64,000 nucleotides of DNA from assembly GCA_043228905.1 (NCBI GenBank), contig JBHGNT010000004.1:18910001-18974000 (forward strand), written 5' to 3'. This DNA is from Azolla caroliniana (taxonomy: Eukaryota; Plantae; Polypodiophyta). The notes below the pieces were generated by a model. The model worked only from the letters and a program-made list of their open reading frames with translations. It did no database searches and was not told the origin of the DNA. Below are positions 14,182-61,228 of the stretch, piece by piece; position 1 is the stretch's first letter, and each line of letters starts with the position of its first letter. The position numbers and the translations under genes were made by a program.

Positions 14182-14293
14182 ATCAGTCAGTGGTGGACAC
14201 ACTCTCCTCTCAGTTTTCTTTTTCTTTCTGTGTTTTGTTCTTAAACCTTGTGGTGCTTGCTAGGGTTCAAACATCAAAACATTGCTCACAAGG

Positions 14294-16211: not shown

Positions 16212-16212
16212 T

Positions 16213-16224
16213 TGGTATCAGAGC
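16213..16224 (+). promoter_or_regulatory. Primer-binding site, tRNA-iMet
   Basis: TGGTATCAGAGC just after the 5' LTR. Confidence 0.95.
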
Positions 16225-16644: not shown

Positions 16645-17060
16645 GTATACCACTCTTCCCCTCTATTGAGCCATCACTTGGCCGATTCTAAGGGATGATG
16701 TGGCCTTGATGAGGTGTATGTTGCCTACCTATGCCACTCTACTCTCTATTAAGCCATCAATTGGCCGATTCTATGGGATGTTGTGGCCTTGACAAAGTAT
16801 ATGTAGCTTACATATGCCACTTTCCTTTTTAATTAGCCATCAATTGGCCGATTCTAAGGGATGATGTGGCCTTGACAAGGTATATGTAGCTTACATATGC
16901 CACTTTCCTTTTTAATTAGCCATCAATTGGCCGATTCTAAGGGATGATGTGGCCTTGACGAGGTATATGTCACTTACCTATGCCACTTTCCTCTTTAATT
17001 AGCCATTACTTGGCCGATTCTAGGGATATGTGGTGGTCTTGAGGAGGTGCATGTCAACTA
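16645..17060 (+). repeat. 83-bp tandem array (~5 copies) in the chromovirus 5' UTR
   Basis: GGCCGATTC recurs at 16680, 16763, 16846, 16929 and 17012. Confidence 0.9.
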
Positions 17061-18039
17061 CCCTAGGGTTTCGTATCTTAGGGCATGTTTGATTCCATAC
17101 ACCTAATTGTTGATTATTCTAATTAAATTTTAATTTCATAAGTATTGTTTCACTTATATGATTTTCTAGTAATTATTATTTACCCGCCCACAATTAACTC
17201 TCCTTTTTCCACTTCCTTTTCATGTATAAAGTATTTACATCGTTTATTTTTAATGTAACCTTTACGTGTAGACTATTTTTTTCGTATGGAGTGGCTTGTT
17301 GAACGATTTTTTTTTCAACGGGTCATCTAGGTTTAACTCTTATCATCAAGCCTTAGAAAACGAGTAAAACCATATGAGTTCCCTTATTGATGTTTTACTC
17401 ATGGATTTGAGTATTACATCTTTGCGCACAACACCGTCATCACTTGTATCAATTTGTGGCTTATGTCACAATTGTGCAAGTTATAACAATCATATTGGGA
17501 TGTATATGTGCATACCTTGCACTTCCCATTTATTTGTGACATTGTTTTTTTTCGTAGGTAACACATGGGTTTTTTTTTATTTTTTTACCCTTGTTTTCGT
17601 CACTACTTAACTCTTATGAGTAGTGCCTTATTTTATCATTTTATCATCACGTTTGCTTATTGTTCGCAAGACTAGAATATTACTTGTGAGTGCACTTGTT
17701 TTTTCACGTAATACACTTTCTCGACCATATAATACATGATGGGTTGGCATTAATATAAGGCTATCTAGGAAATTTCATTGATGTAAGAACCATGGTTGAG
17801 CCTCGGGGAGCCGCCATGATTACTCAAGATAGAGATCCGAGAAATACATCTTAGCTATGTTTTCCCCCATGGTTTTTAAAACACCATAGTGTTACCATAG
17901 TTATCGGATCTCGAATTACATCTCATATGTCTAGAGGGGTAAAGACATGAGATACTTTCTTGCATAAAGTTCTTTCAATCAAAATTTCAAGCATTCATTT
18001 TGCTTGTGTATTTTTTGAACCTCCTTATTTTATTGCATA

Positions 18040-18275
18040 CCCACAGCGTGCATCATGGAACAAGTTTTGAACGCAGTTGGAACGATCTCTCCAAATGAGA
18101 CCTCTCAACCCCAATCCGCATCTCGCACACAAGCTGAGATCACTATTGAGCAATTGCCCCACAGCGTGCATCATGGAACAAGTTTTGAACGCAGTTGGAA
18201 CGATCTCTCCAAATGAGACCTCTCAACCCCAATCCGCATCTCGCACACAAGCTGAGATCACTATTGAGCAATTGC
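18040..18275 (+). repeat. Exact 118-bp tandem duplication spanning the gag start codon
   Basis: 18040-18157 equals 18158-18275; ATGs at 18055 and 18173. Confidence 0.93.
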
Positions 18276-21200: not shown

Positions 21201-22576
21201 TACCCTCGAAGGCGACCTTTCACATTACAAACGGTTTGCTCTACCGTAGTGGAAAGGTCTGTGTTCCAGATTTACCAAATGTTAAACAGAAATTTTTTCA
21301 TGAATGTCATGATGCACCATCTGCTGGTCATCCTGGAATACAACGCACACTCGTTCTCATCTCGTGTACTTTTTTCTGGCCTAAGATGCGCTCTGACGTG
21401 CATAAATACGTAACTCAATGCTTACAATGTCAGATTAATAAGTCGGAACGACTTAAAGTTGCTGGTCTTTTACATCCCTTAGATATTCCCAACAATAAAT
21501 GGGAAAGTATCTCGATGGATTTTATTGTTAGTTTACCTCGTACACAGAGGGGTCATGATGCCATATGGGTTGTCGTTGACAGGCAAACAAAATTACCTAG
21601 ATTTATTCCTACAAAAACCACGGTAACCTCTCAACAGTTGGCTTATCAATTTGTTGATGAGTTATTTCGTTTTTATGGATTACCGATGGATATTGTTAGT
21701 GATCGAGATTCCAAGTTTACTAGTGACTTTTGGACTCAGGTCTTTAAGAAACTAGAAACTACGTTGAGCATGAGTTCCGCAGATCATCCTCAGTCTGATG
21801 GACAAACTGAACGAGTTAATCAAATTATTGAGGACATGCTTCGAGCTTATGTAGCAAAAACCCCTTCTAAGTGGGAACAATACCTTCCTATCTTAGAATT
21901 TGCCTATAATAGCTCTAAACATACATCCACTGGATATAGTCCTTTTATGTTGATGTATGGTTTTCAGCCACGTGCCCCAGTTGATGTCACGATTCATCGT
22001 GATACATTAGACAGTACACGCAATTTTTTGCAAGACATGAACCAAATGTTGCATATTGCCAAAGAAAATGTCAAGACAGCTCAAGATCGTGCTCGATTTT
22101 ATGCTGATCAGGATAGACGTCCTCGTGCATTTACTATTGGTCAAAAAGTTTTTTTGCGTGTCCCGACTGATTCTACGTCATTATCTACGGGCAAGTGCGC
22201 TAAGTTAGCCCCACGATATTGTGGCCCATTTGAAATCCTTAAGCGAGTTGGGTCATCTGCTTATCACCTTGCCTTACCTCGTAACGTTGGTATTCATCCT
22301 GTTTTTCACGTCAGTCGTCTAAAACCATTTTTAGGCTCTGGTGATAACACCATCACAATCCAAGATCTTGTAACATTAGAGGATTTTTCTTACAAACCTC
22401 ATGTTCCTGAACGAATTCTTGATTCTCGTACTAAACGTTTACGTTCTAAAGAGATTCGGCTATTCAAGATCAAATGGATGGATAAACCTATTGATGATGC
22501 CACATGGGAACGCGAGCATTCGCTTAAGGCACAATTTCCTCACTTTATATTGCAAGAGTGCAATCTTTTGAAGTAG
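18173..22576 (+). pseudogene. Single-frame gag-pol polyprotein with one premature TAG (20102-20104)
   Basis: Gag, CCHC knuckle [14 protein letters not shown], protease LFDSGS, RT (KIDL..GYH*IRI, VFLDD), RNase H TDASD, integrase HHCC and SDRD..F, GPF motif, chromodomain PERILD...KW....DATWE. ORFs 18077-20104 and 20177-22576 share one frame. Confidence 0.95.
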
Positions 22577-22583
22577 GGGAGTA

Positions 22584-23054
22584 TGTTATGTACACATAAC
22601 GTTGGTGAGGGTAGGTCACTAATATTTACATTAGTGAAGGGTATGTTCACTATTATTAAAAAGGAGACTAATGATTGGATAGAATGAATGATATGTGCAT
22701 GCACTATCATGATTTAGACAACCAATGAATAGAGAGCCTTTTAGAAAGGCACATCTATTCAAGGGGCCTAGGAAAAGGTATAAATATGAGGCTTAGCTAC
22801 CCTCATAGGAATCACGTCAGAAGGCTGCTGTCGTAGACACCGGTGGTGCGGGCTAGGCTTTCGTCTCGACGATCGTGTTTATCTCTTCCAAGGTATTAGT
22901 CATCCTAATATCCGGCGGTATGGGACGTCGGTGGTAGGTTGGCTATGTCTAGATCATAGCTCGGGGGTGGTCGGGTGGAACGGGTTCTTCTATCCAATCT
23001 ATTTTCTTCCTTTTTACTTGATTTGGTCTATTGATTAGTAATAGACTCTTAACA
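22584..23054 (+). repeat. 3' LTR of the 7.3-kb chromovirus
   Basis: 471 bp, preceded by the polypurine tract AAGTAGGGGAG at 22571-22581. Confidence 0.97.
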
Positions 23055-38345: not shown

Positions 38346-40576
38346 CTATTCTTCACTGCTGAAGTTTTGATTACATTTGTTTCTGCTTGTTCCTGCTGTT
38401 GCATATATATTTTCCATACAAACATAAGCTGCTGCACAATTTTCATCCAACTTTACTGATTTCTCAAATGCCCATTTCCCAAGTTTTACATCCCTCCACT
38501 GTCTACAAGCACTCAATATAGCCAAAAATAGTGGAAGACGTTCAGAATTTGGCACCTTGTCAGTTAAGGCTTTCACCTCATCAACATGACCTGCACGGAC
38601 ATACAAATCAATCATACATGTATAGTGCTCAAGTGTTGGTGTAAGACAAACAGCACACATTTCATCAAACAACTTTTCCCCCTGATTCACTAGGCCTGCA
38701 TGACTACATGCCGTCAGCAAAAGAATGAACGTAACCACACCTGGCATAGCACCTCCTGCCCTCATTCTTCTATACAAGTACAAAACCACATTGGCCTCAC
38801 CTAACTGGGTATATCCAGCCATCAGAGCACTCCAAGAAACTATATCCTGAAAGGGAAGCTCTTGAAACACTTCTTGCGCTTTCTCCAGTACACCACATTT
38901 TGAATACATGTCCACCAAAGCAGTTCCAAGCACAACATCATTTTGCAGTGCCCCCTTCTTTCTGACCTCGGTATCTATATCTTCTCCAACTTTTAGAGAT
39001 CCAACAATGCCACAAGCTTTCAAAACGGATAGATAAGTTACATCGTCAGGACGAACTTGTGCATCTTGCATCTGACTGAAGCATTTTAGAGCTTCATCAC
39101 CAAGCCCATTTTGGGCATACCCAGCAATGATTGCGCTCCAAGCCACAACATTCCCTGCTGGAAGCTGATCAAATACTTCTCGTGCTTTCTCTAGTGCTCC
39201 ACACTTGCAATACATGTCCATCAATGCAGTACCAAGCACAACATCCTTCTGCAGTAACCCTTGCTTTCTCACCTTGGTATCTATATCTTCCCCAATTTCA
39301 AGAGATCGAACAATGCTACAAGCTTTCAGAATGCAGACATAAGTTCTTGCATCTGGAATTATCCCTGCATCTTGCATCTGTCTGAAGCCTTCCAATGCTT
39401 TATCACCAAAACCATTTTGAGCATATCCTGAAATCAATGCACTCCAAGTCACTACATCTCGTTTGGGAAGGTCCAGAAACACTTTTCGTGCTTTCTCTAT
39501 TGCACCGCATTTGCCATACATGTCTATCAATGCATTGCCCAACACAATATCTCTTTGCAATAACTTACGCTTTCTAACTTGTGCATCAACATCTTCTCCG
39601 ATGTCCAGAGAGCCAACATTGCCACAAGCTTTCAAAATGTGGGCATAAGTTACCGCATCTGGATGGACACCAGCATCTTGCATTTGGGTGAAACATTTCA
39701 ATGCTTCATTACTCAGACCATTTCTTACGTATCCCGCTATAAGGGCACTCCATGTCACAACATTTTGCATTGGAAGATTCTCAAACACTTCTCGTGCTTT
39801 GTCTAGGTTACCACATTTGGAGTACATGTCTACCAATGCAGTGCCAAGCACAACATCCTTCAGCAATAGCCCTTTCTTTCTGACCTCAGCATCGATAACT
39901 TCTCCGATCTCTAGAGATCTAACAATTCCACAAGCTTTCAAAATGCATACATAGGTTATCACATTCGGACTAACTCGACCATTTTGCATCTGTCTAAAAC
40001 AATTCAATGCTTCATATCCGAGTCCATTTTGAGCATATCCTGTGATTAATGCATTCCACGACACAACATCTCGCACTGGAAGTTTCTCGAATACTTCTCT
40101 TGCTTTGCCCATAGCACCACATCTGGAGTATGCTGTAATGAGAGCATTGACAACATAAGAATCTGCGAGAATCATACCTTTTTCCAGAATATCAGCATGT
40201 ATACTTCTTGTCTTTGATACGTCCTTTTCTCTCCCACATAATTTTATGCGATGAAGGAGCTCCAATCGATAACAAGAATGCAGTTTCGGAGGATCGTGAT
40301 AGTTGGGATGTTTAGCATGTGAGCGAATCAAATGAATTTCTTTGAGCTGCCCTTTGGCCGAATTTCCGCTGTGGTTGTGAGGCTTGGAGCTTCTCCGCAA
40401 TGATCGTAGAAGAGATTTCGTCTGAGATGCAAAACAAGAGATTCGGATCTTGCGATAAGATAGAGCGAGATAAAGAAAGGAAAGATTAGAGAGAGAGAGA
40501 GAGAGCTTACAATGAGATGGTTGCAGAGCTGTGGTGGATCGCTGAGGAGCTCCTGCTTCATCGTGGTGGCCATCAT
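38346..40576 (-). CDS. PLS-class pentatricopeptide repeat protein with E1 and truncated E2, no DYW domain (candidate organellar RNA-editing factor)
   Basis: Four similar P-L-S triplets (VVSWNALI.GY, TY..ILKAC, ALVDMYSKCG), then P2-L2-S2 (LTACSHAGLV, LEHYTCMID) and E (LAILSAC...AAAYVCMENIYA). Preferred model is exon 40576-40511 plus 40421-38346 (~713 aa); the unspliced ORF from 40610 is also open. Confidence 0.92.
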
Positions 40577-42148
40577 CCATGGATCGATCGATCGATCGAT
40601 CGCATAACATTATAATTTCTGTACATATGTAGTATGTACATACATACTCTGCTTTTTCAGATGTTATGTTGGATGAAGAAGAAAATTATCAATAATTATG
40701 GAAATAGGCCTCCTCCACCATCCATAACCCATTATAACCAACCCCCAAGAGGGCACCCCAATAAATTACAAAACCCCACCCGAAATCTTCTAACACGGCC
40801 CGATGATGTGGTCGACTGAGCGGCCACCCATACAACACGGCCGGACACTCTTGCCCGCCTACGGCTCACGCCTTCACACTTTGTCCTCTTCATGACCTGC
40901 CTAACTTCTCCCGCCAACAAAAAACTGCCCAATCTACCTACCATTCATCCGGTCTTCGGATTGTCCCATAGCTTAGTAACTATAGAGAGTGACTGCCAAT
41001 CGTTTCTCACCCGTCTCTCTAACAAAAGGGTAGATGGAAGTCTGTTCCAACACACAAACTTCGTGGTGGTTCCCAAGAAGAACACTGGAGCAAGACATAA
41101 CTTTCCAATCAAGACATTGAAGGACCCTAGTCTCATCCTCGCCTCGACTCTACATCAACTTATATGTCTTCTTGGTCGTTCGACTATCATCATCTCATGT
41201 CTACTTCCTCAACCTAGGTGAATTTTCACAAGAAAAAGAATTGTGCCTACATCAATTCACAACAAGTCATCAACTACACCACCGACTTCAATCATATGAT
41301 AATTATCATGAAATGTTCATAGTGAATCACAAGGAAAACTCAAGGTGGACAAGTTTGGTTCCGTCTCAATGACCTCAAATACAAGCTTCAACTAGTCCCT
41401 CATGGATGAAATGAAGGATGAACATTATCCTTTACGAGAGAAAGATGAAATCTACCATTTTTGCAAAAGGGCACAAGATTGAGATTAACATTGAATAGTG
41501 GCACAAGCAAATTGGCTAGTGGCCACATTAACCTCTAAAGGTTGTGGATGATGCAATCAAAAGAAGTGATCATAAGATTCTTGTTTTGAAAAGAGATGTA
41601 TATACAAAAGACTGATGCTACTATGCATGCAATCACTATATTCTAGATCCATACACAACAATCTGTGATCGATCGAATTATTGTTGTTTTGTCGCAACAT
41701 CTAAACTCTACCAACATCACACAACAATTGGGTTCATGCAATATTGTGATGCTTTGGTGCCACAACTTAGTTTAATCACATATATTGCAAGAACAATTCA
41801 CATCCATGTCAAGTATCCATCAAACATCTTACTTTGATTCTAGAGTCCAAGGATAGACTAAAGATGCCTTATAAATTTATGACAATAGAGAGACAGCCTA
41901 ACATTGTTATGAGTATAAAGGTAATACCTATAAACTTTATACCCCTTAAGTTTAAAAGGGACATAGTTGTTCTTTATTTAAATAAGGAAGATGTCTCAAG
42001 ATGGTTCTCAAGAAGGGAACCCTAGTAAGAAGTAGCCTATGGTAAGGACATCGAAAGATGTTACACATGTACCTCAATCTTATGAAGCATTGTAATCACA
42101 AGTAAACATATTTAAGAATTACGTTTTTTGGCAATTCTTCTATCATAT

Positions 42149-44580: not shown

Positions 44581-45166
44581 TGTTGTTCGGTCGACAATTA
44601 CTACTTTGCCAACAGAGTATAAGACGAACGTTCTATCAAGAAGTTGTGGTTAGACGAATAGGATATGAATTAGTTGTAAAACTTATCGGTGATAATAGAC
44701 ACCAAGATCGTGACTTATGTAATATAGCTTAGCAAAAGAAAATAGATAGCAAGAACGATTCATACACAGAGGTTTCCTAACTAAACTTTATATTACTAAA
44801 TACAACGATAGATTTTTACAATGCCTTGGGTTCCTTTTATAGGTGTCACGGATCATAAGCTCAAGAGACAAGCAAGAAGATAACCAAATGGACAAGAAAG
44901 AAGATAGTATTAAAGGAAAGACTCCATAACTAGTGTTGTTCACCTTGAATTCCTTCAAGGTGATCTCCTCTATTTATACTACATGGCATGCATACTTGTT
45001 GCACGCATGTGAATCTACAATAGAGCATGTAGGTATGCATGCATGTGCCAAGTGTAAATACTACAAGGGAGCAACTATGCACATGATGCTAGCAAAATAA
45101 TAAGGACCAATTACATACATAACTATGTACTAGATATCTTGGTTAACTCATAATACTAGATTATAA

Positions 45167-48100
45167 CTATGTCGTGTCAAGAGTTCGAATCTTGACATTA
45201 TCCCCCCTCCTACGCCGCCTTCCCAAATCGGCCGCTGGTTTGTGGGGATATCGGTGATGAAAATCTTGGACGACCTCTAGGGCATTTTGTAAATTTGCCG
45301 ATGGTTCCCATGTGGCCTCAGACATGGGGTAACCCCTCCATAGGACGAGGTATTGCAAGTGTTGACGGTGCCAATGTGAGTCAAGGATTTGGTCGACCTC
45401 GTATTCCTCCCTTGTCGTCAATTGCACAGGTGGTGGTGGTGGGGCCTGACGTCTCGGGAGTTGTGAAGCATAATGGGGTTCGAGGAGGGAGACATGAAAA
45501 ACATCGTGAATCCGGAAGTGGGATGGAAGGGCGAGCCGGAAGGCGACGGGATTGATGCACTCGATGATACGGAATGGTCCCAACTTCTTATAATCAAGTT
45601 TCGCACATGGACGAGTAGTAGAGATGTGTCGACGTAACAACCAGACCATGTCTCCAACGACAAAGTGTGGAGTGGAAGATCGATGGCGATAAGCCTGCCT
45701 CTTGTATCGTTCACTAGCAAGACTAAGCTCCAAGGATAAATCATGATGTAGTTCTTCCAAAATGCGGGTGCGATCCTTCGCCGAAGGGTTCACGGAAGTG
45801 GTAGGAAGGGAAATCTTGAAGCGAGGATGTAAACCATAGTTGGCAAAGAAGGGAGTGACACCAGTCGATGCATGGAGAGAATTATTGTAGGCGAATTCCG
45901 CGAGCGAAAGTAAGTTGACCCAATCATCTTGTTGGTAACTAACCGAGCACCGAAGATACTGCTCAAGGATTTGGTTGACACGCTCCGTTTGCCCGTTAGT
46001 TTGGAGGTGATAAGCGGAGGACAACTTGACAGAGATGCCTAAAGTTTGTAGCAGGCGCTGCCAGAAGTGAGAGACAAACTGGGGTCCGCGATCCGAGATG
46101 ACATCATCGGGGAGTCCATGCAAGCGTACCACATTGTTGAGTAGTAGATGCACCATTCCTTCTCCGGAAATGGTTTTGGAGCATGGAGTGAAGTGAGCCA
46201 TCTTCGTAAACCGATCGACAACGACCAACACCGAGTCATAGTTATTGACTAAGGGTAGATCAGTTATCAGGTCCATAGATATAGAGGCCCAAGGACGACG
46301 AGGACATGGAAGCGGCTGTAGTAAGCCGTATGGCCGATGATTAATGGCTTTGGAGCGAGCACAAACCTCACAACTCTTTATGTATTATTTGACCAACTTC
46401 CATGGTTGTGGCCACCAATACCCCCGAGAGATTAGCTCGAGGGTTTTCACAACCCCGAAATGACCTGCAAGTGGGTCATCGTGGCATTCCCGCAACACCC
46501 GGGTGCGACATGGGCCCTCTGTGACATATAAGAGATGATCTCGGAACAACAAACCCTCTTGTATGGTGAAGGTGTCAAGATCCTTCCTTTTGGTCGCCTT
46601 GGAGGGGTTTTGCAAACTATCTCGAACCTCGTTGGCGAACACATCGGTCTTGGATGCATCAGTGATTTGTTGGAGTAAAGAATCATCCTGCAACATACAA
46701 GTGGCAAAAAGATGCAATTGGTCGGGTTTCAACAAACGTCTAGATTGTTGAGCATAAGCAGCATCCCCAGGGCGGAGTGCAAGGTCATCTCGGCGAGAAA
46801 GGGCATCGGCCTTCCCATGTTGGCCACATGGTCGAAATACAATCTCAAAATCGTAGTCGGCGAGAAATGTCGACCAACGGGCCTGCCTTCGATTCAAAGT
46901 ACGAGTGGTGGAAAAATAAACTAAATTTTTATGATCAGTCACTACCTGGACACGATGTTGTGCGCCGGCCAAGTAGGGTCGCCATTCTTCAAAGGCAACA
47001 ATGATAGCAACAAGCTCCTTGTCGTAAATGGGATAATTGATTTCGGATGCCGTAAATTTTCGGGAATAGTAAGCCACTGAGTGCATTAGGTTGTTGTCGT
47101 CTACCTGGGATAAGATGGCGCCAATGGCAAAGTCAGAGGCATCGGTTTCGACTTGGAAGGGTTTTTGTGGGGTCAGCATGTAGCAGCACCGGGGCAGTGA
47201 TGAATGCGTGTTTGAGTGAGTCGAACGCATTTTGCGCCTCCGAGGTCCATAAAAATGGAGTGCATTTATGGGTGAGAGCGATAAGAGGTTGTGCTAGGGT
47301 GGAAAACCCCTTGATGAAGCGACGGTAAAAATTCGCGAAGCCGAGGAAGAATTGCACATCTTTAAGTCGCCTTGGAGTCGCCCACGCCTGAATGATAGAG
47401 ACCTTCTTCATATCCATGGTGATGCCAGTGGGCGAGATGATGTAGCCCAGAAATTCGATCGAGGTACGGTCGAACTCGCATTTCTCGCCTTTGGCATAAA
47501 GGCCATGCTCGCGAAGTTTGGCAAGAACTAATCGGACTTGGCGAGTGTGCTCCTCCATGTTTGGCGAGAAAATGAGAATATCATCGAGCTAAATGACAAC
47601 AAAAAGATCAAGATATTCCCGGAATATATCGTTCATCATATGTTGAAAAACTGGGGGAGCGTTAGTAAGACAAAAAGGCATTACCTTGTATTCGAAATGC
47701 CCATACCGTGTTCGAAATGCGGTTTTCCATTCATCCCCTGGCTTGATGCATACTAGATTGTACGCTCCACGCAAATCAACTTTGGAGAAGACACGCGCAA
47801 CTCGGAGCCGATCAAGGAGTTCGGGGATCAGAGGTAGCGGATAACGGTTGTGCACAGTGAGTTTGTTGAGACCTCGGTAGTCGATGCATAAGCGTAGAGA
47901 GCCATCCTTCTTCTTCACAAATAAAATGGGGGCCCCGGCTGGTGACTTAGAAGGTTGAATAAATCCTTTCTCGAGGTTCTCATCGAGATACACACGAAGG
48001 GCCTTCAACTCTGGTGCAGACAACGCATATAGAGGACCAAAGGGTGGACACGCACCTTCTTGAAGATCAATCGGACAGTCGTAGAGCCGGTGTTCAGGCA

Positions 48101-48743
48101 AACGATCAACATTACATTTTTCAAATACGTCGGAGAAGTGTTGGTATTTTTCGGGTATAACATGGAGTGTGTTAGAAATGGCGCCACAAACAAACCCATC
48201 CTGGACTGATGATGGGGTAGTCAATTCGGAGTCGACCGTCTCCGAAGGATAGGAAACTGAATTTACCTTCATACTTTTGCACGAGCATCTTGGCTTGCTA
48301 AATGTGATCGAGCGGTTGCACCAATCCACTATTGGATTGTGCGCCTCCAACCACGTTAGTCCTAAGAAGATCGGATGTCGAGGAGATGCGATGAAGTAAA
48401 AGGCGAGCTCCTCCTGGTGTGAGCCCACCCGAAGCCCTAATGGGATTGTAGCTTGAGTAATTGCACCTGACGAGAGGACGCACCCGTCGATGGCTTCAAT
48501 TGGAATGGGTTTTGAGAGGCCAACGATAGGTACGCCATGTGCTTGGGCAAACGCGACGTCGATGAAGCAAGAAGATGCCCCAGAATCAAGTAAAGAAACA
48601 GACTGAATGGAACTAGAGTTAAACGAAAGTCATACCTCCAATGTGAAATTGCTTGATGGTCCGGCAATGGAACCAACAGAATGTGGGTGACGGGAGATGT
48701 CCAGTTGCATGGCTCCTACTGCAACCGAATGATGTCGTTTTCC
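45167..48743 (-). pseudogene. pol (PR-RT-RH-IN-chromodomain) in the -1 frame of gag, with several disabling lesions
   Basis: [56 protein letters not shown]...YLVLWRGY. Stops at 48632-48630, 47591-47589 (YLDD to *LDD) and 46387-46385; frameshift near 47165. Confidence 0.92.
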
Positions 48744-49732
48744 AGATGTTGGGGTCCGTTAGCTCGATGGAATTGTGGGCGAGTACTCCTAGGACAATGG
48801 TGAACGACATGACCGGAAGCGCCACAATACATGCACAAGCCATTAGCCCGCCGAAATTGTCGTTCAGCATCAGTCAATGGCCGAAATCGGGCTTGATCAA
48901 TTTCCATGGGGACAGGAGCATCTACCAAAGTAGGCGAGTGTGAGGATGCCTGGGGTTGTATGATCGGGGCGTGGCGTGGAAGTGAATGAGGTGGAACCCA
49001 AGTCCGGCGCTCTTCTTGGCGAAATTCGAAAAGACGATTGTCACAATGGACTGCTTGTGAAATCGCTTGGGATAACGAGGTGGGCTCCGGAAAGTTTAAG
49101 AGAAGATTCTTGACATTGCTTCGAAGGTCGCGCCGAAAGTGATAAACTAAAGCTTGATCATCCCAATTGACGTCGCATGCTAGTTGTCGAAATTCTGAAG
49201 CATAGACCGAAGCTGCACGCGAACCTTGTTCGAGTGCATAAATCTTGTTAAGAGTTGTACGTCGTCGGTCCGTCTCTCCAAATGTGGCCTCTAACTCGGC
49301 GAGGAAGGTGGGAAAGTCCTCCAATAGAGGTGACGAGGTTTCTACCAATGGTGCAAACCAAGCTTGGGCCGGACCGGAGAGAAGGGTGCCCACAAGGCCG
49401 ACTTGTCGAAGACCATCTCCATAACGTTGAGGTTGTAGCCGAATGATAAGTCGAACTTGGTTGATGAACCCTTGGAAACGCGACCTCGTTCCATCAAATT
49501 TTTCTGGGAGGCTAACCTTAAGCTCAAGAAACTGTGACGAAGCTAGACTAGATGTTGGTAGAAGATCGGGCTCTAGGTTAGGTTGTTGTGGGAGACTAGG
49601 GTTCGGGGGTTGTGAGGATAGGGAGGTACCGACTTGAAGTTCTTGTAAAGAATTTCGAAGAGCTTCATTTTCAAGTTGTAGCTGTCGTAAGGCTACCATT
49701 ATTTGGCCTAACTCACTAGTTGAGTCGGACAT
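48716..49732 (-). CDS. gag (338 aa) with a CCHC zinc knuckle
   Basis: PEKFDG.R, LLSGPAQAW, YASEFRQLA..V.W, VPMEID, NGLCMYCGASGH...HC. Confidence 0.92.
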   Translation of the reverse strand: MSDSTSELGQIMVALRQLQLENEALRNSLQELQVGTSLSSQPPNPSLPQQPNLEPDLLPTSSLASSQFLELKVSLPEKFDGTRSRFQGFINQVRLIIRLQPQRYGDGLRQVGLVGTLLSGPAQAWFAPLVETSSPLLEDFPTFLAELEATFGETDRRRTTLNKIYALEQGSRAASVYASEFRQLACDVNWDDQALVYHFRRDLRSNVKNLLLNFPEPTSLSQAISQAVHCDNRLFEFRQEERRTWVPPHSLPRHAPIIQPQASSHSPTLVDAPVPMEIDQARFRPLTDAERQFRRANGLCMYCGASGHVVHHCPRSTRPQFHRANGPQHLENDIIRLQ

Positions 49733-50466
49733 AGCTATGGATTATGAGAGGGAGAGCTATGAGGATGGGAAGGTGAACAAATTGTCACGGATCATAAGCT
49801 CAAGAGACAAGCAAGAAGATAACCAAATGGACAAAGAAAGAAGATAGTATTAAAGGAAAGACTCCATAACTAGTGTTGTTCACCTTGAATTCCTTCAAGG
49901 TGATCTCCTCTATTTATACTACATGGCATGCATACTTGTTGCACGCATGTGAATCTACAATAGAGCATGTAGGTATGCATGCATGTGCCAAGTGTAAATA
50001 CTACAAGGGAGCAACTATGCACATGATGCTAGCAAAATAATAAGGATCAATTACATACATAACTATGTACTAGATATCTTGGTTAACTCATAATACTAGA
50101 TTATAACTATGTCGTGTCAAGAGTTCGAATCTTGACAATAGGTAACCCGAAGGTCTTTTCTCATCAAGAAATCCTACTGCCTATAATTATCAAGAATTAC
50201 AAAACTTCGTAACTAACTATATCCTATTTGGCTTATCTGCTGAGTCATCGATCCGACTCCGACTCCAACGCATCCATACTTGTCTGGGTAACAGATATTT
50301 GTTGTGGAGAAAGAGGGATAAGATGGGAATCACATGAGTTACGTGGAATCATCTAGAAAGCCCTAAGTGCTTGGGGGAGCTACAATATAGGACTTATCTA
50401 TGCATATGATGGTTCATAGAGTTTCATTATTGCGAAACATGTGTTTAGACTCACAACCAAGGATAT

Positions 50467-51708
50467 TGTGAAATGCACATAAGAGATCAAAACCAGTCTA
50501 CTTAGCTTCTTACTTCTTAATCAATTTATAGTTGATACAACGAAACCCATTTGGGTTGGCCTAGCTAAAAAGGGTGTGCTAAAAGGGTGGGTCATTTTGG
50601 GCACACGCATCCTAAAAAGGGTGTGCTAAAAGGGTGGGTCAACTTGGGTACGTGCATCTAAAAAGGGTGAGCTAAAAGGGTGGCACAAAGGAACACATGC
50701 ACACCACATTTCCCCCCTGCGAGAAACAAGAGATTGAGGGGCATGAGTGACCATGTGTGGTCCTTGCCGGGAACTGGAACGGTCCTCACTGAGAGTTGGA
50801 ACACGAACACCAACGGGCGTGAGCAACCATGTTGTCCTCACCGAGAATTGGAACACGAACGAGTGAGTGACCATGTGGCCCTCATCGGGAACTGGAACAT
50901 GAACAACAACGGGCATGAGCGACCATGTCGGTCCTCACCGGGATCTGGAACACGAACAATAGTTGGAGTGAGCGGCCATGTGCGGTCCTCACCGGAGATT
51001 GGAACACAAACGGGAGTGAGCGACCATGTGGCCCTCACTGGGAACAGGAACACGAACGGGAGTGAGCGGCCATGTGCGGCCCTCATCGAGAACTCGAACA
51101 CGAACGGGCGTGAGCGACCATGCGGCCCTCACCAGGAACTAGAACACGAACACCAACGGGAGTGAGCAGCCATGTGTGGCCCTCATCGGGAACTCGAACA
51201 CCAACGGGAGTGTGAGTGGCCTTGTGCGGCCCTCATCAGGAACTAGAACATGAACACGAACACGAAAGAAACTAAAAAATAGAGACAATGAAGCGGTGGA
51301 TATCGGGAGGCCTAACTAGTGAACTAAGGCGGTGCTAATAGAAGAGATACTACTACAAGAGACTAACAAGAGTGTCGGTGATGGTGGTGAAGGCGATGCT
51401 ACCTACGAAGCGGAAGAGGCGGATGCTTGGATGTGGGGGACTGGTACCCCGTCATCTCCACCAATATGTGAAATGCACATAAGAGATCAAAACCAGTCTA
51501 CTTAGCTTCTTACTTCTTAATCAATTTATAGTTGATACAACGAAACCCATTTGGGTTGGCCTGGCTAAAAAGGGTGTGCTAAAAGGGTGGGTCATTTTGG
51601 GCACACGCATCCTAAAAAGGGTGTGCTAAAAGGGTGGGTCAACTTGGGTACGTGCATCTAAAAAGGGTGAGCTAAAAGGGTGGCACAAAGGAACACATGC
51701 ACACCACA
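50467..51708 (-). mobile_element. TRIM (non-coding miniature LTR retrotransposon, 1242 bp)
   Basis: 242-bp LTRs 50467-50708 and 51467-51708 (one substitution seen), ATAT TSD, minus-strand PBS TGGTGGAGATGACGGGGTA (51463-51445), purine-rich PPT at ~50718-50709. Confidence 0.93.
50744..51266. repeat. Tandem array of ~10 units (mostly 44-53 bp) inside the TRIM, each a predicted stem-loop
   Basis: GTGAG-C-GRCC-loop-GGYC-CTCAY followed by GGGAACTGGAACACGAAC, recurring near 50744, 50820, 50864, 50916, 50969, 51017, 51063, 51111, 51163 and 51213. Confidence 0.9.
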
Positions 51709-52468: not shown

Positions 52469-55400
52469 TGTCGAATACGACTTCATAATGTATTCACATT
52501 GTCCTATTGGGAATACTAGGTCTAGGCCATATCTAGATCAGGTTGAATTTAAACTGAACTTCGTAACCTAGTTGTATTTGTTGTTGTTGCTATTGTAACT
52601 TTGAGTTTGAATAATACAGTTACACTATGCTTTGATTCTTTGACCTTGATCTTTGCTATGTTGTCTCCATTTCTAATCTGTTCATTCGATTATTTAATAA
52701 TCAATTTGGTTTTCTTCATCACATGATGTTGTTCTCGTCTCTACACTGACAACCTTATCTCCAATATCTGGTATTAGAGCTTGGTTTTGTATTCTACTGC
52801 TGGCCACTATCTGTCTTCAACAACATCTTTGGTCTCAACACCTTGAAGACTCCAAGTCGATTCAAGTCTCTGAATAGAGTCTAGATTTCAGTTAGACAGA
52901 AACCTTCTGATCAACAACTTACAAGACCTTATCTAGTGAATTGAGAAGCCACCTTGTTGATCCGCACTCCACTGAACTAAACGACACCTCAAGTAGGCCA
53001 ATCGGTTATACTCTTCTTGGTGGTTGTAGTCGCTCAAAGTGGGATCTTGTGGAAATCGGCCTCATCTGTGCTCCATCCGGCTAAGTGAAACTCGGGCAAA
53101 CCAATCGGTGTTGTCCCCTCATTCACTCTAGTCACTCAGAGCAGGATTGGCATTACAAATAACACATAATCTGTAATCGATACCTTAAAATTGACAATTG
53201 GAATAGGACTGACAATTAAATATGCTCAATTTGGTTAGGTGATATTTGGGAAGACCAGTCGGCTCTGTCCCTCCACTCAGCGTAGCCACCCCGAGCAAGT
53301 TTAGTACCCAACTACCGTTCGAAATCCAATCGGCTAATCGATCGGTTAATTCGGGTCCAATTGGTTGTAGTCACTTTGGACAAAACCCGCTAATAGTCGA
53401 AACTGATTCGGCTTGTGTTCAAATTTGGCTAGAACATATTTAGGTGAGCCAATCGGTTGCACCCTCCTACCATTCGTAGCAAACTCAGAATAGAGCTTAC
53501 CAGCCAACACAAATGGCATCAACATCCGACTCATCAAAGATGAGTCAAGACTATTTGGTAGTCAAGGGTTAGATTGACTCAATTGAAATTGAAAATGCTC
53601 CAGAAGGTTACAAGCCAAATGAGTGGACGAAACTAGACAGAATTGTCCATGCCACCATTTAGATGCATCTATCTGAATCCGTGTATTACAAGGTGTGGTC
53701 GTGTACGACAACATTTGAACCATGGAAAACGTTGTCAGACACCCACGAGAAGAAGGTAGCCACGACAAAGATATACTTGATTGAGCGCCTCTACAACGTT
53801 CGGATGAAAGAGTCTGATTTGGTCCATGCACACATCAATGAGTACGAAAGCTCCAGATTTCGTCTCAGGGAACGACAATTGAAGATGAATTGAAAGCAAT
53901 GTTGCTAATGAGTAGCCTTCCCTCCTTCGTGGGAAACTTTTGTCACAACAATGTGCAATGCTTCACTTGCCGCCGTGAAGTACTCCGAAGTCATGAGCTC
54001 AATCTTGACGGAAGTTGCTTGAAGGAATCATTCATACACAATTCGGCTAGCGATACTTACATAGTACAAGGTTTGGCTGACCAACCAAACAACCAGGGAA
54101 GAAGTTCTTCCCAGCCGCCGACACATTCACGAAGCCGAAGCAAGTCTTGAGATAATCGAACTTGCAACTAATGCAAGAAACCTAGACATATCAAAGCCGA
54201 TTGTTGCGCCCTCAAAGCCAAGAATGATAAAGCTGAGCAAGCTTATTAGAAGAGTGACCAGCATGAGGAGGTCAACTACATCGGTTCATCAGCCGAAGTA
54301 CGAACGGGTGATCCGAACATCCAGTTTATAGAGTCTAACTCAATCAAATCAGAAGTTCTGATTATAATTGAGGAATTGAGCACATGGCTCTTGGATTCGA
54401 TTGCATCCTACCACGTGACCCCTCATCGATCCCAATTTCGGCAATTATTATTCGAAATTCGCAGCTTTGCGTTATAAATGGAATCAACATTGTCGAGCTC
54501 AACCTTCCGGGTGTCTCTACACCTGTACTACACAACGTCTGACATGTACTTGAGCTCTCAAGTCCATTGATTTCAATCAAACAATTAGATGAAGATGACA
54601 TCCATGCCGACTTCTCATTAGGAGGTGGACACTCCACAAGGGGAACCTCTTGCTTGCTCGAGGTCCAAAAGTACATTTCTTGTACTTGCTATATGTCACA
54701 CTCAGAGAGGGTGACTTGTTTCTAGTTGATATCCTCATGTCATCACTATGGCATGGACGACTCAGACACCTCAGTAAGGTCAACATAACATACTTGTCCA
54801 GAGCCGGATACATTCCCAAACTCTTCTTCTCGGACCACCAATTATGCGAGCACTACCAATACGGCAAACAAACCACAGCCTCGCACCTGATGACATCACC
54901 ACGAGAATCGAGCCCCATCGATTTGGCTCATTCGGACATTTGTGGCCCGATGCCGCATCAGTCTCTTGGTGGCGCTTTCTATTTCGTCAACAATTCAACT
55001 CGCAAGGTGTGGGCATATCTAGCCAAAACCAAAGATCAAGTGTTCTCAATCTTCCAAGAATGGCTTGCCATGGTCGAGAATCACTTGGCCAAAAGTTGAA
55101 ATGTTTACGGTCCAACAATGGAGGAGAGTACAAATAAGAGGAATTCGTCAGATTTTGCCAACAACGCAGCATTTGATGAGAATACATGGCACCACATAGT
55201 ATGGAACAGAATGAAATTGACCAACGAATGAATCAAACAATTCAAGAACGAATTGTTATTATGCTCCAACACTCCGCACTGTCGGATGACTTCTGGGCAG
55301 AGGCCCTACTTACAGTAGTACACATAATCAATATGATGCCGAGTAGGCCTCTAGGACCTCAAATACCTCTGGAATTATGGACTGGAAGTAAGCCAAATTA

Positions 55401-57897
55401 CGAGAAGCTGAGCATTTTTAGATGCGAGGCATACGCCCTCATACTGAAAGACGATCGCCGAAAACTCAAACCGAGGTCCAGGAAATGCATTTTCCTTGGC
55501 TATGGACCACACGGCGAAATCAAATAGAATAGACAGATCGTCCGAAGTTCAGATGTTGTCTTCAACGAGTTAGTCATGCACAAGACGGCCGAAAGGCCTA
55601 TTGAAGTCCGAAGGGTAACTTTTTCAGAAGTGCCAACCCTTCATGACGACCCAGCTTGTAACACGAGGTCGACTTCATGGGTAGTTGAATCTTTTAGCAC
55701 GGAATCAGCTCCAACTGATTTGGCATAGCCAAATATTTCAACTCTGGACCATCTGCCTTACACACCCGATTAGGCTAGCCCAGTCACTCCAAGGATATCC
55801 GAAAGAATGTCGTAGCCTTTGAAGAGGTACTCTCCTGGAATCTTCTTCATGGATGCCGGCAAGCCGACATCATATGAAGAAGCATCAACATCAGCTGATT
55901 CAGCCACCTGGCATCTGGTGATGGAGTCAGAGATTAACTCCATTTAGCAAAACAAGACTTGGGACTTGGTCGAATTACCGCAACATCAACGTGCTCTTCC
56001 GTGCAAGTGGGTCTACAGACTAAAAGAGATGTTTGATTCAACCACCCCAAAATTCAAGGCCATATTAGTAGCAAAAGGGTTTCAACAGGAATACCGCATC
56101 GATTTCGACAACATCTTCACCAACGGTGAAAATGACCACCCTTTGCTTCATGCTTGGCATCGTGGCAGCTGAGGAGTTAGAATGGATCCAGCTAGATGTC
56201 AAAACGGCATTCCTCCATGGTGAACTAGAGGAGGAGATTTATATGGAACAACCGAAAGGCTTCGTGGTATCCGGGCAGGAACATCTAGTTTGCAGACTCA
56301 TGAAGATTCTATACGGCCTCAAACTAGCTCCCCGACAGTTCTACAAAAAGTTCGATGACTTCATCCAATCGGTTAGCTTCTCAACGAGCGATGAGGACCA
56401 CTGCCTCTTCACCAAAACAACTCGAGATGGGTCACCCATCTTCCTCATAATTTATGTGGAAGACATGCTACTCTCCTGCCGGCATGCGAGAGAGCTCACC
56501 AGACTTGTTCAACAACTGGAATTGAAGTTTGCCATGAAGGACCCCGGTCTACATATTCTAGGGATGAAGATTAGTCGGCTTCGGAATCGGTGACAATTGC
56601 TTCTATCGCAAGCGAACTACATTGGACGTGTCTTAGAATGCTTCAACATGCAATTGGCAAAATCTACTTTGACCACAATCCCAATTAGTCTTCAACTATC
56701 TCAAACGGACTGCCTAGCATCCGGTCCAGAGGGGAAATTTATGAAGTTGGTGACATATGCACTAACTGTCGGCTCAATGTACGCGATGGTCGCCACACGA
56801 CCGGACTTAGCTCGCGCCTTGTCAGTAGATTTATGCACAATCTCGGCCGATCGCATTGGACTGTAGTAAAGCATGTGTTCAGATATCTGGTGGGCACAAA
56901 AGACTACGACATCCTATTAAGCTCGAACAAGACTTCTGGCATAGTTGGATACACTGATTCAAACTTTACCAACTACCTAGACAGTCGAAAGTCGACAACC
57001 GGGTACTACTTCAAATTCGACAATGGAGCAATCTTGTGGAAATCAAAACTACAGGAATGCTTCAACGACCGAGGCCGAATATGTAGTAGCATCCGACGCA
57101 ACGAAAGAGGCCTTATGGCTCAGTCGACTGGCGTGCACGTTTCGACAAGCCAACTCCGAGTCAACTCTAATTGTCTATAGTGACAGTCAAGGTGTTGTTG
57201 CTTTGTCCAAAAATATGGTTCATCACAATGCCTCAAAGCATATAGACGTGAGGTATCACTTTTTTCGGGTCTACGTCATTTCAGGGAAAATCGGCCTCGA
57301 GAAGATATCTACATCCGATAATGTCACAAATGGGATGATCAAGGGTCTTCCGGCATACCATTTTTGGTCTCTTTGGCACCAAATGGGTGTTCAGAGAAAT
57401 CGGTCTGATTGAGTCGAACATTTAGGATGGTTTCGGACATTCGGCATCGACATTTCAAGATTCGGTAATCAGTATAGCCAACTCAGCTTTAGACTCTCCA
57501 ACTAGGACTCTCTTTCGAACTAGCCGATTCAACCTTAGCCCTTTCAGCTTCGGCCAATCTGGCTTCTTGTTTTTTGGACATTGCCGAATTCAGACAAAAG
57601 CCGACATGACAAGGGAGTGTCGAATACGACTTCATATTGTCCTATTGGACATATTAGGTCTAAGCCATATTTGTAAATATTGGAAAGAGCAGTTGCCCTA
57701 GTTTAGCTTGTATTTAAACTGAACTTTGTAACCTGTAGTAGTTGTACTTGCCATTGTATCTTTGAGTTTGAATAATATAGTTACACTATGTGTGCTTCTC
57801 TCTCTCTCTCTGATTCTTTGACTCTTTGATCTTGATCTTTGCTAAGTTGTCTCTGTTTCTAATCTATTCATTCGATTATTTCATTATCAACTTGGTG
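52469..57897 (+). mobile_element. Degenerate Ty1/copia LTR retrotransposon
   Basis: 5' LTR 52469-52766, PBS TGGTATTAGAGC (52769-52780), fragmented gag, knuckle, protease WLLDS, LWHGRLRH, HSDICGP, RALPCKWVY, QLDVKTAFLHG, GYTDS, SKHIDVRYH (IN before RT). Diverged, apparently truncated 3' LTR from 57618; no TSD found. Confidence 0.92.
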
Positions 57898-58415
57898 TTC
57901 ACTTGCAACCATCGTGTGTGTGTGTGTGTGTGTGTGTGCACATGCACTACTCTAAAACACCGAAAACATGTATTTGCCTACATGTATCTTTGAAACACTA
58001 AGTGTGTTACTAGTGTGACATTAATAATCTTGTGTAAAGACAATATTGTTTTAATACAAATGAGGTGGTGCACAATATATATTCTCTAGATGTGTAAGGT
58101 TAGTACCCAAGAATATAGGATAGTTAATGGGCCAATGCATAGCCATCTAGATGAGCATCTAACTAATTGGTATAATATGCCTAAGAGTTATGTATGAGAA
58201 GGGGAAGCGTTCCTCAAGGGAACTCCATTATATAATGAGAGATATGCATGAGTCAATGAGAAAGAGAGGTGCGGTAAAATGAGATATGATTCAAGTATTA
58301 AATGACTCGATGTCAATGGGGGATCATGCAACCATAAGCATAGTTCAATGCTTGCCTTTGACCACCAACTTCTTCTTGTCAATATTAGCATTGTTGTAGG
58401 GTTCAAGAGGAGCAC

Positions 58416-58953: not shown

Positions 58954-61228
58954 TCAAGATATATAATACATCGGATTCGGCAATTTGAAGACACGACTTC
59001 CCACGGAGTAGCCAGTGATGTCACTCCATTGATCCCCAATATTGCCTACAATCACATATCCCAAATCTTGTAGAGCTTTCCGCTTTCGTGACTTGTAATA
59101 TATTGCATCCACACCATGATCCTCATTTTGTCTGGTGTCAAATACAGAAAACAAATATGTGAGACCTATCATTTAGCAGTGGATCTCTCTTGTACAACAG
59201 ATTCCAGTATACATTTGTACATACGAATCACTAAAGATGGTTAAAGTGACATAGATTCTTCTTTGCTGTTTTAAGGCAGCCCATTCATTGCCCATTACAA
59301 CAATGGTAGAGATGGAAGGCCGCCATGTAAGGGAGTACAATTCATGTAGAAATTCTTGCCATAAATCTCACAGAGATTTCATCCATAGCACTGATATTCA
59401 GAGAATAACGATATAATATTATAGTTACTGACAGCAAGATTTCTTTATTGGCGACTTTGTCTCAATTACAGTCGGCTAGTAATAACCAAAAGAAAACCCA
59501 AGTACTTAACTGATTGTATTCTTCAGGGCAAACAGCAAATGTAGCTACTATGGAGAGACAATCATATAAATAATCAATGTGGGTTTTCGCAGCGAGATAA
59601 ATTTCCTACCACTCGATCCACCATTTCATATAAGCAAAAATTTCAGTAATTTTGAAGGCAGCCAGAATGACTGACACTGGAGAAACAACTTGGAAATTTT
59701 ATCGACAAACTTCTCCAACCATAATCTCAAGACAATAGTAGTGCTCAGATAAATCCTTTTCAGAAAAAACGCAGCAATCATGATGCCATGTAAAAGAAAA
59801 TAATGTCCTTATCCGTCAAGTGTCTCGTCAGTTTCAAATTTTCCAATCCATGTGTTTTTAACTAGCTCGGTCTCTAAAAGCACAGTTTTGTTCAGAAAAA
59901 GCAACGCTCGTCCAATCCTCACCTATCAAAAGCTATGAAAAATAAAATACAAGGAAAAAAAACAGAACTAGGATCTTACCTCAAGATTAATCCTTCCCAA
60001 CCATGATAGCCTGCAGTCTTTAAATTCTCAACAGTTACATTGCGTTGACTCTCACTTCGTCCAGTCAAGAAGAAGACAATAAACCCAAGGTCCCTAAGCT
60101 TGTTGAAGAGTTTGAGAGATGATGGGAGGGCTGGTGCAATACCTTGCTCCACCCAAGCCTCAAACAGCGTGTCATTATACGCTTCTACTCTGTGCAAAGA
60201 TTCAAGGTGAGGATTCCATAAGTGAGAACAAAAACAAAATTCTCAAAAGAGTCAAAATCTACACTAATATGAAGTACAAATTCCAGAACATTACACAAAA
60301 GCAGAATCAAAGAAAGACAAAATTTACACTAACATGAAGATATGCATGATAAAAATATGAAGCACAACACAGAATCGGAACCGAAAGAAGAGACTCTAAA
60401 CTGATATGAAGGTTATGGTTCACAAAGCAAAATAAAAAAGGAAGAAAAATCTACAGTAGTATGAAGATATTGAACTTAAAAACACAAAACAGGGCATGGG
60501 AATAGAACTAAAAGAAAACAAAAATCTTCATTAATACGAAGGTTATTCTCTATAAAGCCCAAAAACGCAGCATACATCAAAGAAAAAAAGATTGCACTGA
60601 CATAGATCAACCATGCATATCCATATAACCAGAAAAAAGATGGACCATCAAGTTAAACCTGAAGAAATCCAAAAGAAGCATGAAAATTAACTCCAAGGAA
60701 CCAAACCTGCAAATTAGAGGGAATCGTTGCACGGAAATGCAAAATCCACAACAACACAGAGAATAGTTTTACATACCCGAAGCGATGGTGAGCATAGTAA
60801 GGAAGGTTGGAAAGGCTAGTTTCATCAATATCGAAGATCCAGACAAGAGGAGGAGAAGAAGAAGAAGAATATGTTCTTCCTTCACCTTCTCCATGGCCAT
60901 TCTCATTCTCAATGTCAACGAGAAGCGAGAAGTTGTAAGAGGTAGCATAGTCGAGGGCCTGACTAATGGCGACCTTCGAGTCTTCAAGATAACCATCGCC
61001 AGTCATGTAAGAAGCAACATAGCTCTCACAAGAGTCCGGAACGTTAGTCCAACCTCGCAGGTTGTTCACCTCCACATTGAATTTCCAACTGTAGCAGAGG
61101 CGCTGTCTGTGGGAGCCTCTCCTTTGGATGGACGGCGATGCTTGAGGGGTTGAAGGGAGGAGGAGGAGAAGAACAAGAAGAAGAAGGTGGAGAGGGAGAA
61201 GGGAGGGTAATGTACAGAAGAACTCCAT
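58954..61228 (-). CDS. Secreted class B acid phosphatase (HAD subfamily IIIB, APS1/VSP-like), 3 exons, 279 aa
   Basis: Exons 61228-60777, 60189-59980 and 59131-58954 (840 nt). Hydrophobic signal peptide, CYSWKFNVEVNN, intact motif I WIFDIDET, FLTGR, GDQWSD, FKLPNPMYY. Confidence 0.95.

What the first reader, a model, noticed from the sequence alone, without database searches (positions are those of the whole stretch)
49770..49918. tRNA-independent, self-primed reverse transcription signal in a plant Tcn1-like chromovirus
Seen: the minus-strand 5' LTR is followed by AT-TTGTTCACCTT (49780-49770), with no TGG tRNA-type PBS. This 11-mer is exactly complementary to AAGGTGAACAA inside the LTR (49886-49876), which begins 32 nt after the start of a TATAAATA box (49918-49911). 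Known: S. pombe Tf1 primes cDNA by folding the first 11 nt of its mRNA onto the PBS, with RNase H cleavage releasing the primer. Inference: this element starts transcription at 49886 and self-primes the same way. A perfect hairpin CACCTTGAA-TTCC-TTCAAGGTG (49881-49902) also straddles the predicted TSS. Self-priming may already be predicted for this lineage, so novelty is unverified.
Basis: partly seen in the sequence, partly recalled or inferred. Interest (0 to 1): 0.82.

Follow-up and report, generated by a model that had tools for sequence, protein, structure and literature searches.

The report
Self-priming plant retrotransposon with primer-masking hairpin
This broken jumping gene in a probably non-seed plant has, where a tRNA would normally dock, 11 letters that pair with its own end-repeat; dozens of relatives keep that pairing with different letters, so the family likely starts copying itself with its own RNA, a mechanism already predicted for this plant lineage, and most relatives also carry a hairpin predicted to hide the spare copy of the primer.

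Summary
Observation confirmed at every coordinate; 1 of 20,000 shuffles gives an 11-nt match. The element is a young but broken chromovirus (LTRs 50137-49783 and 45197-44844, TSD CCTAT). Its RT-RH groups with fungal and vertebrate elements, as Tf1/sushi/Tcn1 do. Of 79 related loci, 33 have a perfect 10-12-nt LTR/PBS pair, in 7 primer sequences. TATA spacing is 31-33 nt in 22 of 24 tested, and a U5 stem flanks the pair. Self-priming is therefore very likely but not new: Neumann et al. 2019 predict it for 83% of 1,500 plant Tcn1 elements, and this scan reported it earlier in other genomes. The start site could not be mapped, and no labelled Tcn1 reference was available. The extra result is the hairpin across the predicted start: present in 20 of 24 elements and covarying with the primer. 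It would form only where U3 is present (3' RNA end, plus-strand strong-stop DNA), likely masking the second primer copy. I found no description of it, but could not read the key Tf1 structure papers.

The parts
49783..50137 (-). 5' LTR, 355 nt, TG...CA
   Evidence: differs from the 3' LTR by 1 substitution and 1 indel
50138..50142 (-). target-site duplication CCTAT (left)
49911..49918 (-). TATA box TATAAATA, 32 nt before the predicted +1
   Evidence: spacing 31-33 nt in 22 of 24 elements
49894..49903 (-). U3 arm of the hairpin across the predicted start; pairs with 49889-49880
   Evidence: 4 of 12 pairs change on both sides; 94.3% of cells paired; 0 of 500 shuffles as stable in this copy
49876..49886 (-). 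predicted self-primer AAGGTGAACAA, predicted first 11 nt of the RNA
   Evidence: start site inferred, not mapped
49863..49870 (-). 5' arm (GTTATGGA) of the inner stem, U5-IR-like
   Evidence: (7 pairs counted, 92.6% paired, 3 change on both sides)
49784..49791 (-). 3' arm (TCCGTGAC) of the inner stem at the U5 end
49781..49782 (-). 2-nt spacer between LTR end and PBS (AT here; GT or GA in relatives)
49770..49780 (-). primer binding site TTGTTCACCTT, non-tRNA type
49754..49801 (-). possible U5:leader duplex (49801-49792 with 49762-49754), seen in this copy but not conserved
   Evidence: shuffle P 0.005 here; P under 0.05 in only 2 of 21 elements
48716..49732 (-). gag ORF (Retrotrans_gag, Ty3_capsid, CCHC knuckle), open
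45167..48755 (-). pol remnant (PR-RT-RNase H-IN-chromodomain), broken by 3 in-frame stops (near 48632, 47591, 46387) and one frameshift (near 47165)
45201..45211 (-). polypurine tract, followed by TAA before the 3' LTR
44844..45197 (-). 3' LTR, 354 nt; holds the second copy of the 11-mer (44946-44936) inside the hairpin
   Evidence: fold z = -4.0
44839..44843 (-). target-site duplication CCTAT (right)

Best explanation
This is a 5.3-kb chromodomain Gypsy retrotransposon whose PBS pairs perfectly with an 11-mer in its own LTR, and which likely starts transcription at that 11-mer and likely primes reverse transcription Tf1-style from its own RNA. Shown: the pairing, its conservation through matched changes, an inner U5 stem, and a conserved U3:primer hairpin. 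Inferred steps: (1) Pol II starts at 49886, 32 nt after the TATA box. (2) Nucleotides 1-11 fold onto the PBS across a 95-nt loop closed by the U5 stem. (3) RT's RNase H cuts after nucleotide 11, at the invariant CAA|CAC junction, releasing a 3'-OH primer, by analogy with Tf1. (4) Plus-strand synthesis copies the primer, so the PBS is rewritten from it each cycle. (5) The U3 arm is absent from the 5' end of the RNA, so the working primer is free. It is present at the 3' end of the RNA and in plus-strand strong-stop DNA, where it would fold over the second primer copy and keep it from pairing with a PBS. Step 5 is my hypothesis (about 0.45). This copy's pol is broken, so any movement would have needed RT from another copy.
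For: The exact 11-nt complement is reached in 1 of 20,000 shuffles. 33 of 79 related loci show a perfect 10-12-nt pair, in 7 different primer sequences, each matched by its own PBS. On 25 aligned rows, 8 of 11 pairs change on both sides; rows were chosen for pairing, so the sequence diversity counts, not the 99% figure. The inner stem was not selected on: 92.6% paired, 3 of 7 pairs with two-sided change. TATA-to-start spacing is 31-33 nt in 22 of 24 elements while the loop ranges from 89 to 216 nt; all 24 have C|A at the predicted +1. Modelled RNA from the predicted start pairs primer with PBS at mean probability 0.86 or more in 23 of 24. The U3 hairpin is reached by at most 3 of 500 shuffles in 20 of 24 elements, including distant L075, which has a wholly different primer; 4 of its 12 pairs change on both sides, two of them between U3 bases that primer copying cannot template. 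In DNA models of plus strong-stop DNA the arm beats the PBS in 19 of the 20 hairpin-bearing elements. The RT-RH tree groups the element with fungal, frog, fish and amoebal rows (SH-aLRT 100), apart from dicot and algal rows and the window's tRNA-primed neighbour. The chromodomain has the three aromatic residues of the cage type (criterion). The Tf1 mechanism is as described in PMC7175516.
Against: The start site is not mapped, and no cleavage or cDNA was observed. 46 of 79 loci lack a perfect pair: 12 have too little upstream DNA, 4 have the PBS near a contig end, and 2 have one mismatch. Of the remaining 28, 3 (L041, L056, L057) have the PBS and long upstream DNA but no partner, 15 JGI loci share another leader with no convincing pair, and 10 show none. 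The third duplex of the Tf1 'pretzel' (leader with LTR) is not conserved here. The hairpin is missing in 4 of 24 self-pairing elements (L058, L065, L066, L071), so it is not required. In RNA models that include U3 and the PBS in cis, the arm wins in only 11 of 24 and loses in this copy. The tree is the quick version with long branches and no labelled Tcn1, Tf1 or sushi rows. At 5,294 bp the element is just under the published Tcn1 range of 5,466-9,444 bp.
Confidence: 0.88

Rival explanations
1. The PBS binds a host tRNA fragment or tRNA half, and the LTR 11-mer is a secondary structural partner.
For: Half-tRNA priming exists in plant copia lineages. The host tRNA set could not be searched.
Against: There is no TGG, so a mature CCA end cannot pair. 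Seven different PBS sequences each match their own LTR at a fixed distance from the TATA box; they would need seven different tRNA fragments. Half-tRNA priming was found only in copia elements.
Confidence: 0.03
2. Self-priming, but transcription starts upstream, so the hairpin sits in the 5' end of the RNA and acts as a switch between a closed form (translation) and the primer:PBS form (reverse transcription).
For: The hairpin is conserved and tolerates G-U pairs. With U3 included, models split evenly, 11 to 11 of 24, between the two folds.
Against: The arm begins only about 13-15 nt after the TATA start, too close for a Pol II start from this box (established knowledge). Complementarity to the PBS stops at a conserved C|A, 31-33 nt from TATA.
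Confidence: 0.06
3. Self-priming is real, but the U3 hairpin does something other than masking: it shortens the distance between an upstream A-rich poly(A) signal and the cleavage site in the 3' LTR, or it is kept matched by template switching with no function.
For: The 3' LTR folds into a longer stem that reaches the TATA/A-rich stretch. Six of 19 rows carry a persistent mismatch in the stem. 4 of 24 elements lack the hairpin.
Against: The arm tracks the primer letter for letter in three unrelated variants (the C variant, the L023 group, L075) at a fixed position. That is more than any stem at this place would need, and a neutral inverted repeat would be expected to decay.
Confidence: 0.4
4. 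Chance complementarity in one decayed element.
For: None beyond the many elements a genome scan examines.
Against: 1 of 20,000 shuffles; conserved with matched changes in 33 loci.
Confidence: 0.01

Closest known systems
Plant Tcn1 clade of chromoviruses (REXdb; Novikova 2010, Neumann 2019)
   Same: No tRNA PBS, with an LTR complement starting 0-5 nt after the LTR (Neumann's criterion, predicted in 83% of 1,500 elements); 5-bp TSD; overlapping gag and pol frames (in L001); aromatic-cage chromodomain; RT closer to fungal/vertebrate than to seed-plant elements.
   Different: Slightly shorter than the published size range. The host may be a fern, where Novikova 2010 found no Tcn1 by PCR in 26 monilophytes, but the host is unplaced. 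The U3:primer hairpin is not mentioned in the passages I read.
Tf1/Tf2 of Schizosaccharomyces pombe, with Tj1, Tosmo1-3 and Tcry1 (Tf1/sushi group)
   Same: An 11-nt 5' primer complementary to the PBS and a PBS-adjacent U5 stem; chromodomain integrase.
   Different: Tf1 is proven by experiment; this element is inferred. The third 'pretzel' duplex is not conserved here. Tf1 has one ORF, while this family has overlapping gag and pol. A covarying U3 arm is present here.
TAR (Houba/Osr-1) copia lineage of plants
   Same: Predicted self-priming in plants (89%).
   Different: Copia domain order and unrelated RT; this element is Gypsy order with a chromodomain.

Membership tests
Ty3/Gypsy chromovirus | gag, then PR-RT-RH-IN order with a C-terminal chromodomain; LTRs, PPT, TSD | tested here: met
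Tf1/sushi group (incl. Tcn1) | RT-RH groups with fungal/vertebrate chromoviruses, not with seed-plant clades | tested here: met
   SH-aLRT 100 for 72 of 85 rows; quick tree, rows named by host only
Tf1/sushi group (incl. Tcn1) | PBS complementary to an LTR segment, not to a tRNA 3' end | tested here: met
Tf1/sushi group (incl. Tcn1) | duplex between the U5 end and sequence just after the primer | tested here: met
   helix 2
Tf1/sushi group (incl. Tcn1) | third 'pretzel' duplex between the leader after the PBS and LTR sequence | tested here: inconclusive
   present in this copy (P 0.005), P under 0.05 in only 2 of 21 elements; a short duplex could escape this test
Tf1/sushi group (incl. Tcn1) | [quoted passage not shown] | not testable with these tools
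   only contigs were offered; TATA spacing and C|A context fit
Tf1/sushi group (incl. Tcn1) | RNase H cleavage after nucleotide 11 releases the primer | not testable with these tools
   needs biochemistry
Tcn1 clade | monophyly with Cryptococcus Tcn1, PpatensLTR2 or SM-Tcn1 | not testable with these tools
   no labelled reference among the hits or cluster members
Tcn1 clade | group I chromodomain with aromatic cage | tested here: met
   Y, W and Y seen in the translation at about 45403, 45340 and 45331; criterion; read by eye, not modelled
Tcn1 clade | gag and pol in overlapping frames; 5-bp TSD | tested here: met
   L001 overlap 3729-3771; TSD CCTAT; published values
Tcn1 clade | moss or lycophyte host | tested here: inconclusive
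   the neighbouring PPR gene has fern proteins as best-scoring named hits at only 34-48% identity; no moss name among the 120 listed
tRNA-primed plant chromoviruses (Tekay, Reina, Galadriel, CRM) | PBS beginning TGG, complementary to a tRNA 3' end | tested here: not met

The most novel reading that the evidence does not exclude
These plant self-priming retrotransposons carry a fourth, undescribed structural element: an anti-primer arm in U3 that covaries with the primer. It folds only where U3 is present (3' RNA end, plus strong-stop DNA), and so solves a problem of all self-priming elements, namely keeping the second primer copy from pairing with the PBS. The family may also extend the Tcn1/Tf1-sushi group to ferns. 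The L037 mosaic suggests that the PBS is rewritten from the primer after U3 swaps.
Probability: 0.3. Interest if true: 0.55.

Novelty: new member of a known kind. Interest (0 to 1): 0.3.

Why it matters
Self-priming in plant Tcn1 elements has rested on a single-sequence complementarity scan (Neumann 2019), and Novikova 2010 found no sign of it in SM-Tcn1. The matched changes, fixed TATA spacing and invariant CAA|CAC junction seen here strengthen that prediction and name an exact start and cut site to test. If the U3 arm masks the spare primer copy, it adds a step to the self-priming model that can be checked in other Tf1/sushi elements. Otherwise this is an ordinary member of a lineage already described.

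Tried and rejected
No genome is held for the window, so same-genome copies and host tRNAs could not be examined; within the window there are only the two LTRs. The viral contig scan found no relatives. Sequencing runs: no RNA holder listed; four contig sets laid on the element show many family variants but cannot give a start site or strand. Rfam: no match over 49600-50200 at E up to 1; ARAGORN: no tRNA in the window. Cluster look-up gave no organism names for close relatives. L045 and L072 (8-nt calls) were rejected as chance. I first read the C-variant primer as three independent origins from the RT tree, then dropped that because L006, L009 and L037 share U3 sequence; it is counted as one. 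A conserved leader duplex was tested two ways and not found. Literature searches for the hairpin or for prior work: self-priming; Tcn1 host range; no listing or passage I saw described a U3:primer hairpin or a fern Tcn1. The Esnault and Levin review is not held.

Full report
Observation. On the minus strand the 5' LTR runs 50137-49783 (355 nt, TG...CA) and the 3' LTR 45197-44844 (354 nt). They differ by one substitution and one indel, and both ends are flanked by CCTAT. After the 5' LTR come AT and TTGTTCACCTT (49780-49770). Its exact complement AAGGTGAACAA lies at 49886-49876, 32 nt after the start of TATAAATA, with a 95-nt loop between them. One of 20,000 dinucleotide shuffles of the LTR gives an 11-nt match. 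The neighbouring chromovirus at 15741-23054 has a TGG-type PBS and 5 nt of self-complement.

What the element is. Pfam finds gag, protease, RT, RNase H, integrase, SH3 and chromodomain in Gypsy order. Gag is open; pol has three in-frame stops and one frameshift. L001, 94% identical over the whole element, has open, overlapping gag and pol frames. In an RT-RNase H tree of 85 rows (quick IQ-TREE run; the careful search did not finish; long branches flagged), the element falls in a group of 72 rows with fungal, frog, fish and amoebal sequences (SH-aLRT 100). Dicot and algal rows and the window's tRNA-primed neighbour fall outside it. The named rows were 25 that I picked from the 120 hits, plus 20 unnamed ones, less those with short matches. 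No row is a labelled Tcn1, Tf1 or sushi, so the tree supports the Tf1/sushi side but not the Tcn1 clade as such. The chromodomain shows the three cage aromatics. The host is a land plant, probably non-seed: a flanking PPR protein has fern proteins as best-scoring named hits, but at only 34-48% identity, with Cryptomeria at 42-45%. Ferns have very many PPR genes (own knowledge), so this is weak.

Relatives. A Gag alignment of 48 proteins brought 79 metagenome loci, the best of 419 confirmed. 33 of the 79 have a perfect 10-12-nt pair between the PBS and the LTR. Seven primer sequences occur, each with its own matching PBS; all end in CAA and are followed by CAC. Of the 46 others, 12 lack upstream DNA, 4 have the PBS near a contig end and 2 have one mismatch. 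Three have a PBS and long upstream DNA but no partner (assembly breaks or true loss), 15 share a different leader with no convincing pair, and 10 show nothing. I aligned 25 rows: the window and 24 of the 33, leaving out near-duplicates, one wrapped contig and one short one. On these, 8 of 11 primer:PBS pairs change on both sides. An inner stem between the bases after the primer and the U5 end is 92.6% paired, with 3 of 7 pairs changing on both sides; slid controls fall to 30-51% paired. The rows were chosen for the primer pair, so only its sequence diversity and the unselected inner stem count as evidence. Among 24 elements the TATA box lies 31-33 nt before the predicted +1 in 22 (38-40 nt in L065 and L071), and all have C|A there, while the loop spans 89-216 nt. 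That is the indirect case for the start site. Sequencing data offered only contigs and could not map it.

Mechanism. [quoted passage not shown] The structure has three duplexes (bioRxiv 2022.12.06.519325, passages). Here two of the three are conserved. The leader duplex is good in this copy (shuffle P 0.005) but passes P under 0.05 in only 2 of 21 elements. I infer the same route: start at 49886, fold, cut at CAA|CAC, extend. Because plus-strand synthesis would copy the primer, the PBS should follow the LTR 11-mer by templating. Matched primer/PBS changes are thus a signature of self-priming and not necessarily of selection on each pair. L037/L038 fit this: U3 resembles L006/L009 (local scores 49-59 against 23 or less), while R-U5 and RT resemble L032, yet the PBS matches the L006-type primer. 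These are metagenome contigs and could be chimeric.

The hairpin. In 19 close rows the U3 arm pairs with the primer and the 3 bases before it: 94.3% of cells are paired and 4 of 12 pairs change on both sides, two of them between U3 bases that primer copying cannot explain. Six of 19 rows carry one mismatch (distant loci were not in this alignment). By shuffling, the hairpin is significant in 20 of 24 elements, including distant L075 with an unrelated primer; it is absent in L058, L065, L066 and L071. Independent changes are few: the C variant (counted once), the L023 group, L075, and the loop-side pairs. Models pair primer with PBS when the RNA starts at the primer (23 of 24). They pair the 11-mer with the arm in U3-R RNA (20 of 24) and in plus strong-stop DNA (19 of the 20 hairpin-bearing elements). 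In read-through RNA the two folds split 11 to 11, and this copy favours the PBS. The 3' LTR segment folds at z = -4.0. My reading is that the arm masks the spare primer copy (about 0.45); a role in 3'-end formation, or no role, remains open.

What is known. Neumann et al. 2019 (PMC6317226; passages and Additional file 5 read, Additional file 1 too large to open) state that most plant Tcn1 elements lack a tRNA PBS and are predicted to self-prime: 83% of 1,500. Novikova et al. 2010 (PMC2864245; passages and section 7) found neither tRNA nor self-priming signs in SM-Tcn1, and no Tcn1 in 26 ferns and horsetails by PCR. I also read passages of PMC4600332, PMC3601003, PMC3350952, PMC8282616 and PMC13469084. 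[quoted passage not shown] Eight searches showed no description of it. This scan has noted self-priming in several other genomes (unchecked AI notes) and nothing resembling this sequence.

Verdict. Real and very likely self-priming (0.88); a new member of a lineage for which this was already predicted. The covarying U3 arm and a possible fern host are the only parts that may be new. Interest 0.3.

Noticed in passing
L037:64-229 and L038 against L006, L009, L032: Mosaic LTR: U3 and primer are of the L006/L009 type, R-U5 and RT of the L032 type, and the PBS matches the primer. The switch lies near the predicted cleavage and strand-transfer point; an assembly chimera is not excluded.
   Followed up: partly
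window 49876-49873 and all 33 paired loci: The primer always ends in CAA and is followed by CAC, while the rest of the primer varies; possibly a sequence requirement at the cut or priming site.
   Followed up: partly
window 15741-23054 (+): Second chromovirus, LTRs 471 nt and about 99% identical, TSD AATAG, TGG-type PBS, one stop in pol; tandem repeats in its leader (83 nt at 16656-17070, 118 nt at 18040-18275).
   Followed up: partly
window about 52469-57990 (+): Decayed copia element (gag_pre-integrase and RVT_2 remnants) with diverged LTRs and a TGG-type site after the left repeat.
   Followed up: no
window 38346-40685 (-): PPR gene with four 306-nt repeats at 71-75% identity; best named relatives are fern proteins at under 50% identity.
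   Followed up: partly
window about 58954-61228 (-): Intron-containing class B acid phosphatase gene next to long (GA)n tracts.
   Followed up: no
window 50467-51708: A 242-nt direct repeat 1,000 nt apart, enclosing 44-101-nt imperfect tandem repeats, with a diverged copy at 42146; unexplained.
   Followed up: no
window 13753-15870 (-): RT-bearing remnant on the minus strand abutting the left LTR of the neighbouring chromovirus.
   Followed up: no
L045, L047-L049, L051, L053-L055, L060, L063, L069, L070, L072, L074, L078: A group of Gag relatives (44-48% identity) sharing one leader with no TGG and no convincing self-pair; priming mode unexplained, possibly decayed copies.
   Followed up: partly
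L065, L071: 10-nt primer, TATA 38-40 nt upstream, and a U3 hairpin that ends at the predicted start without covering the primer.
   Followed up: no
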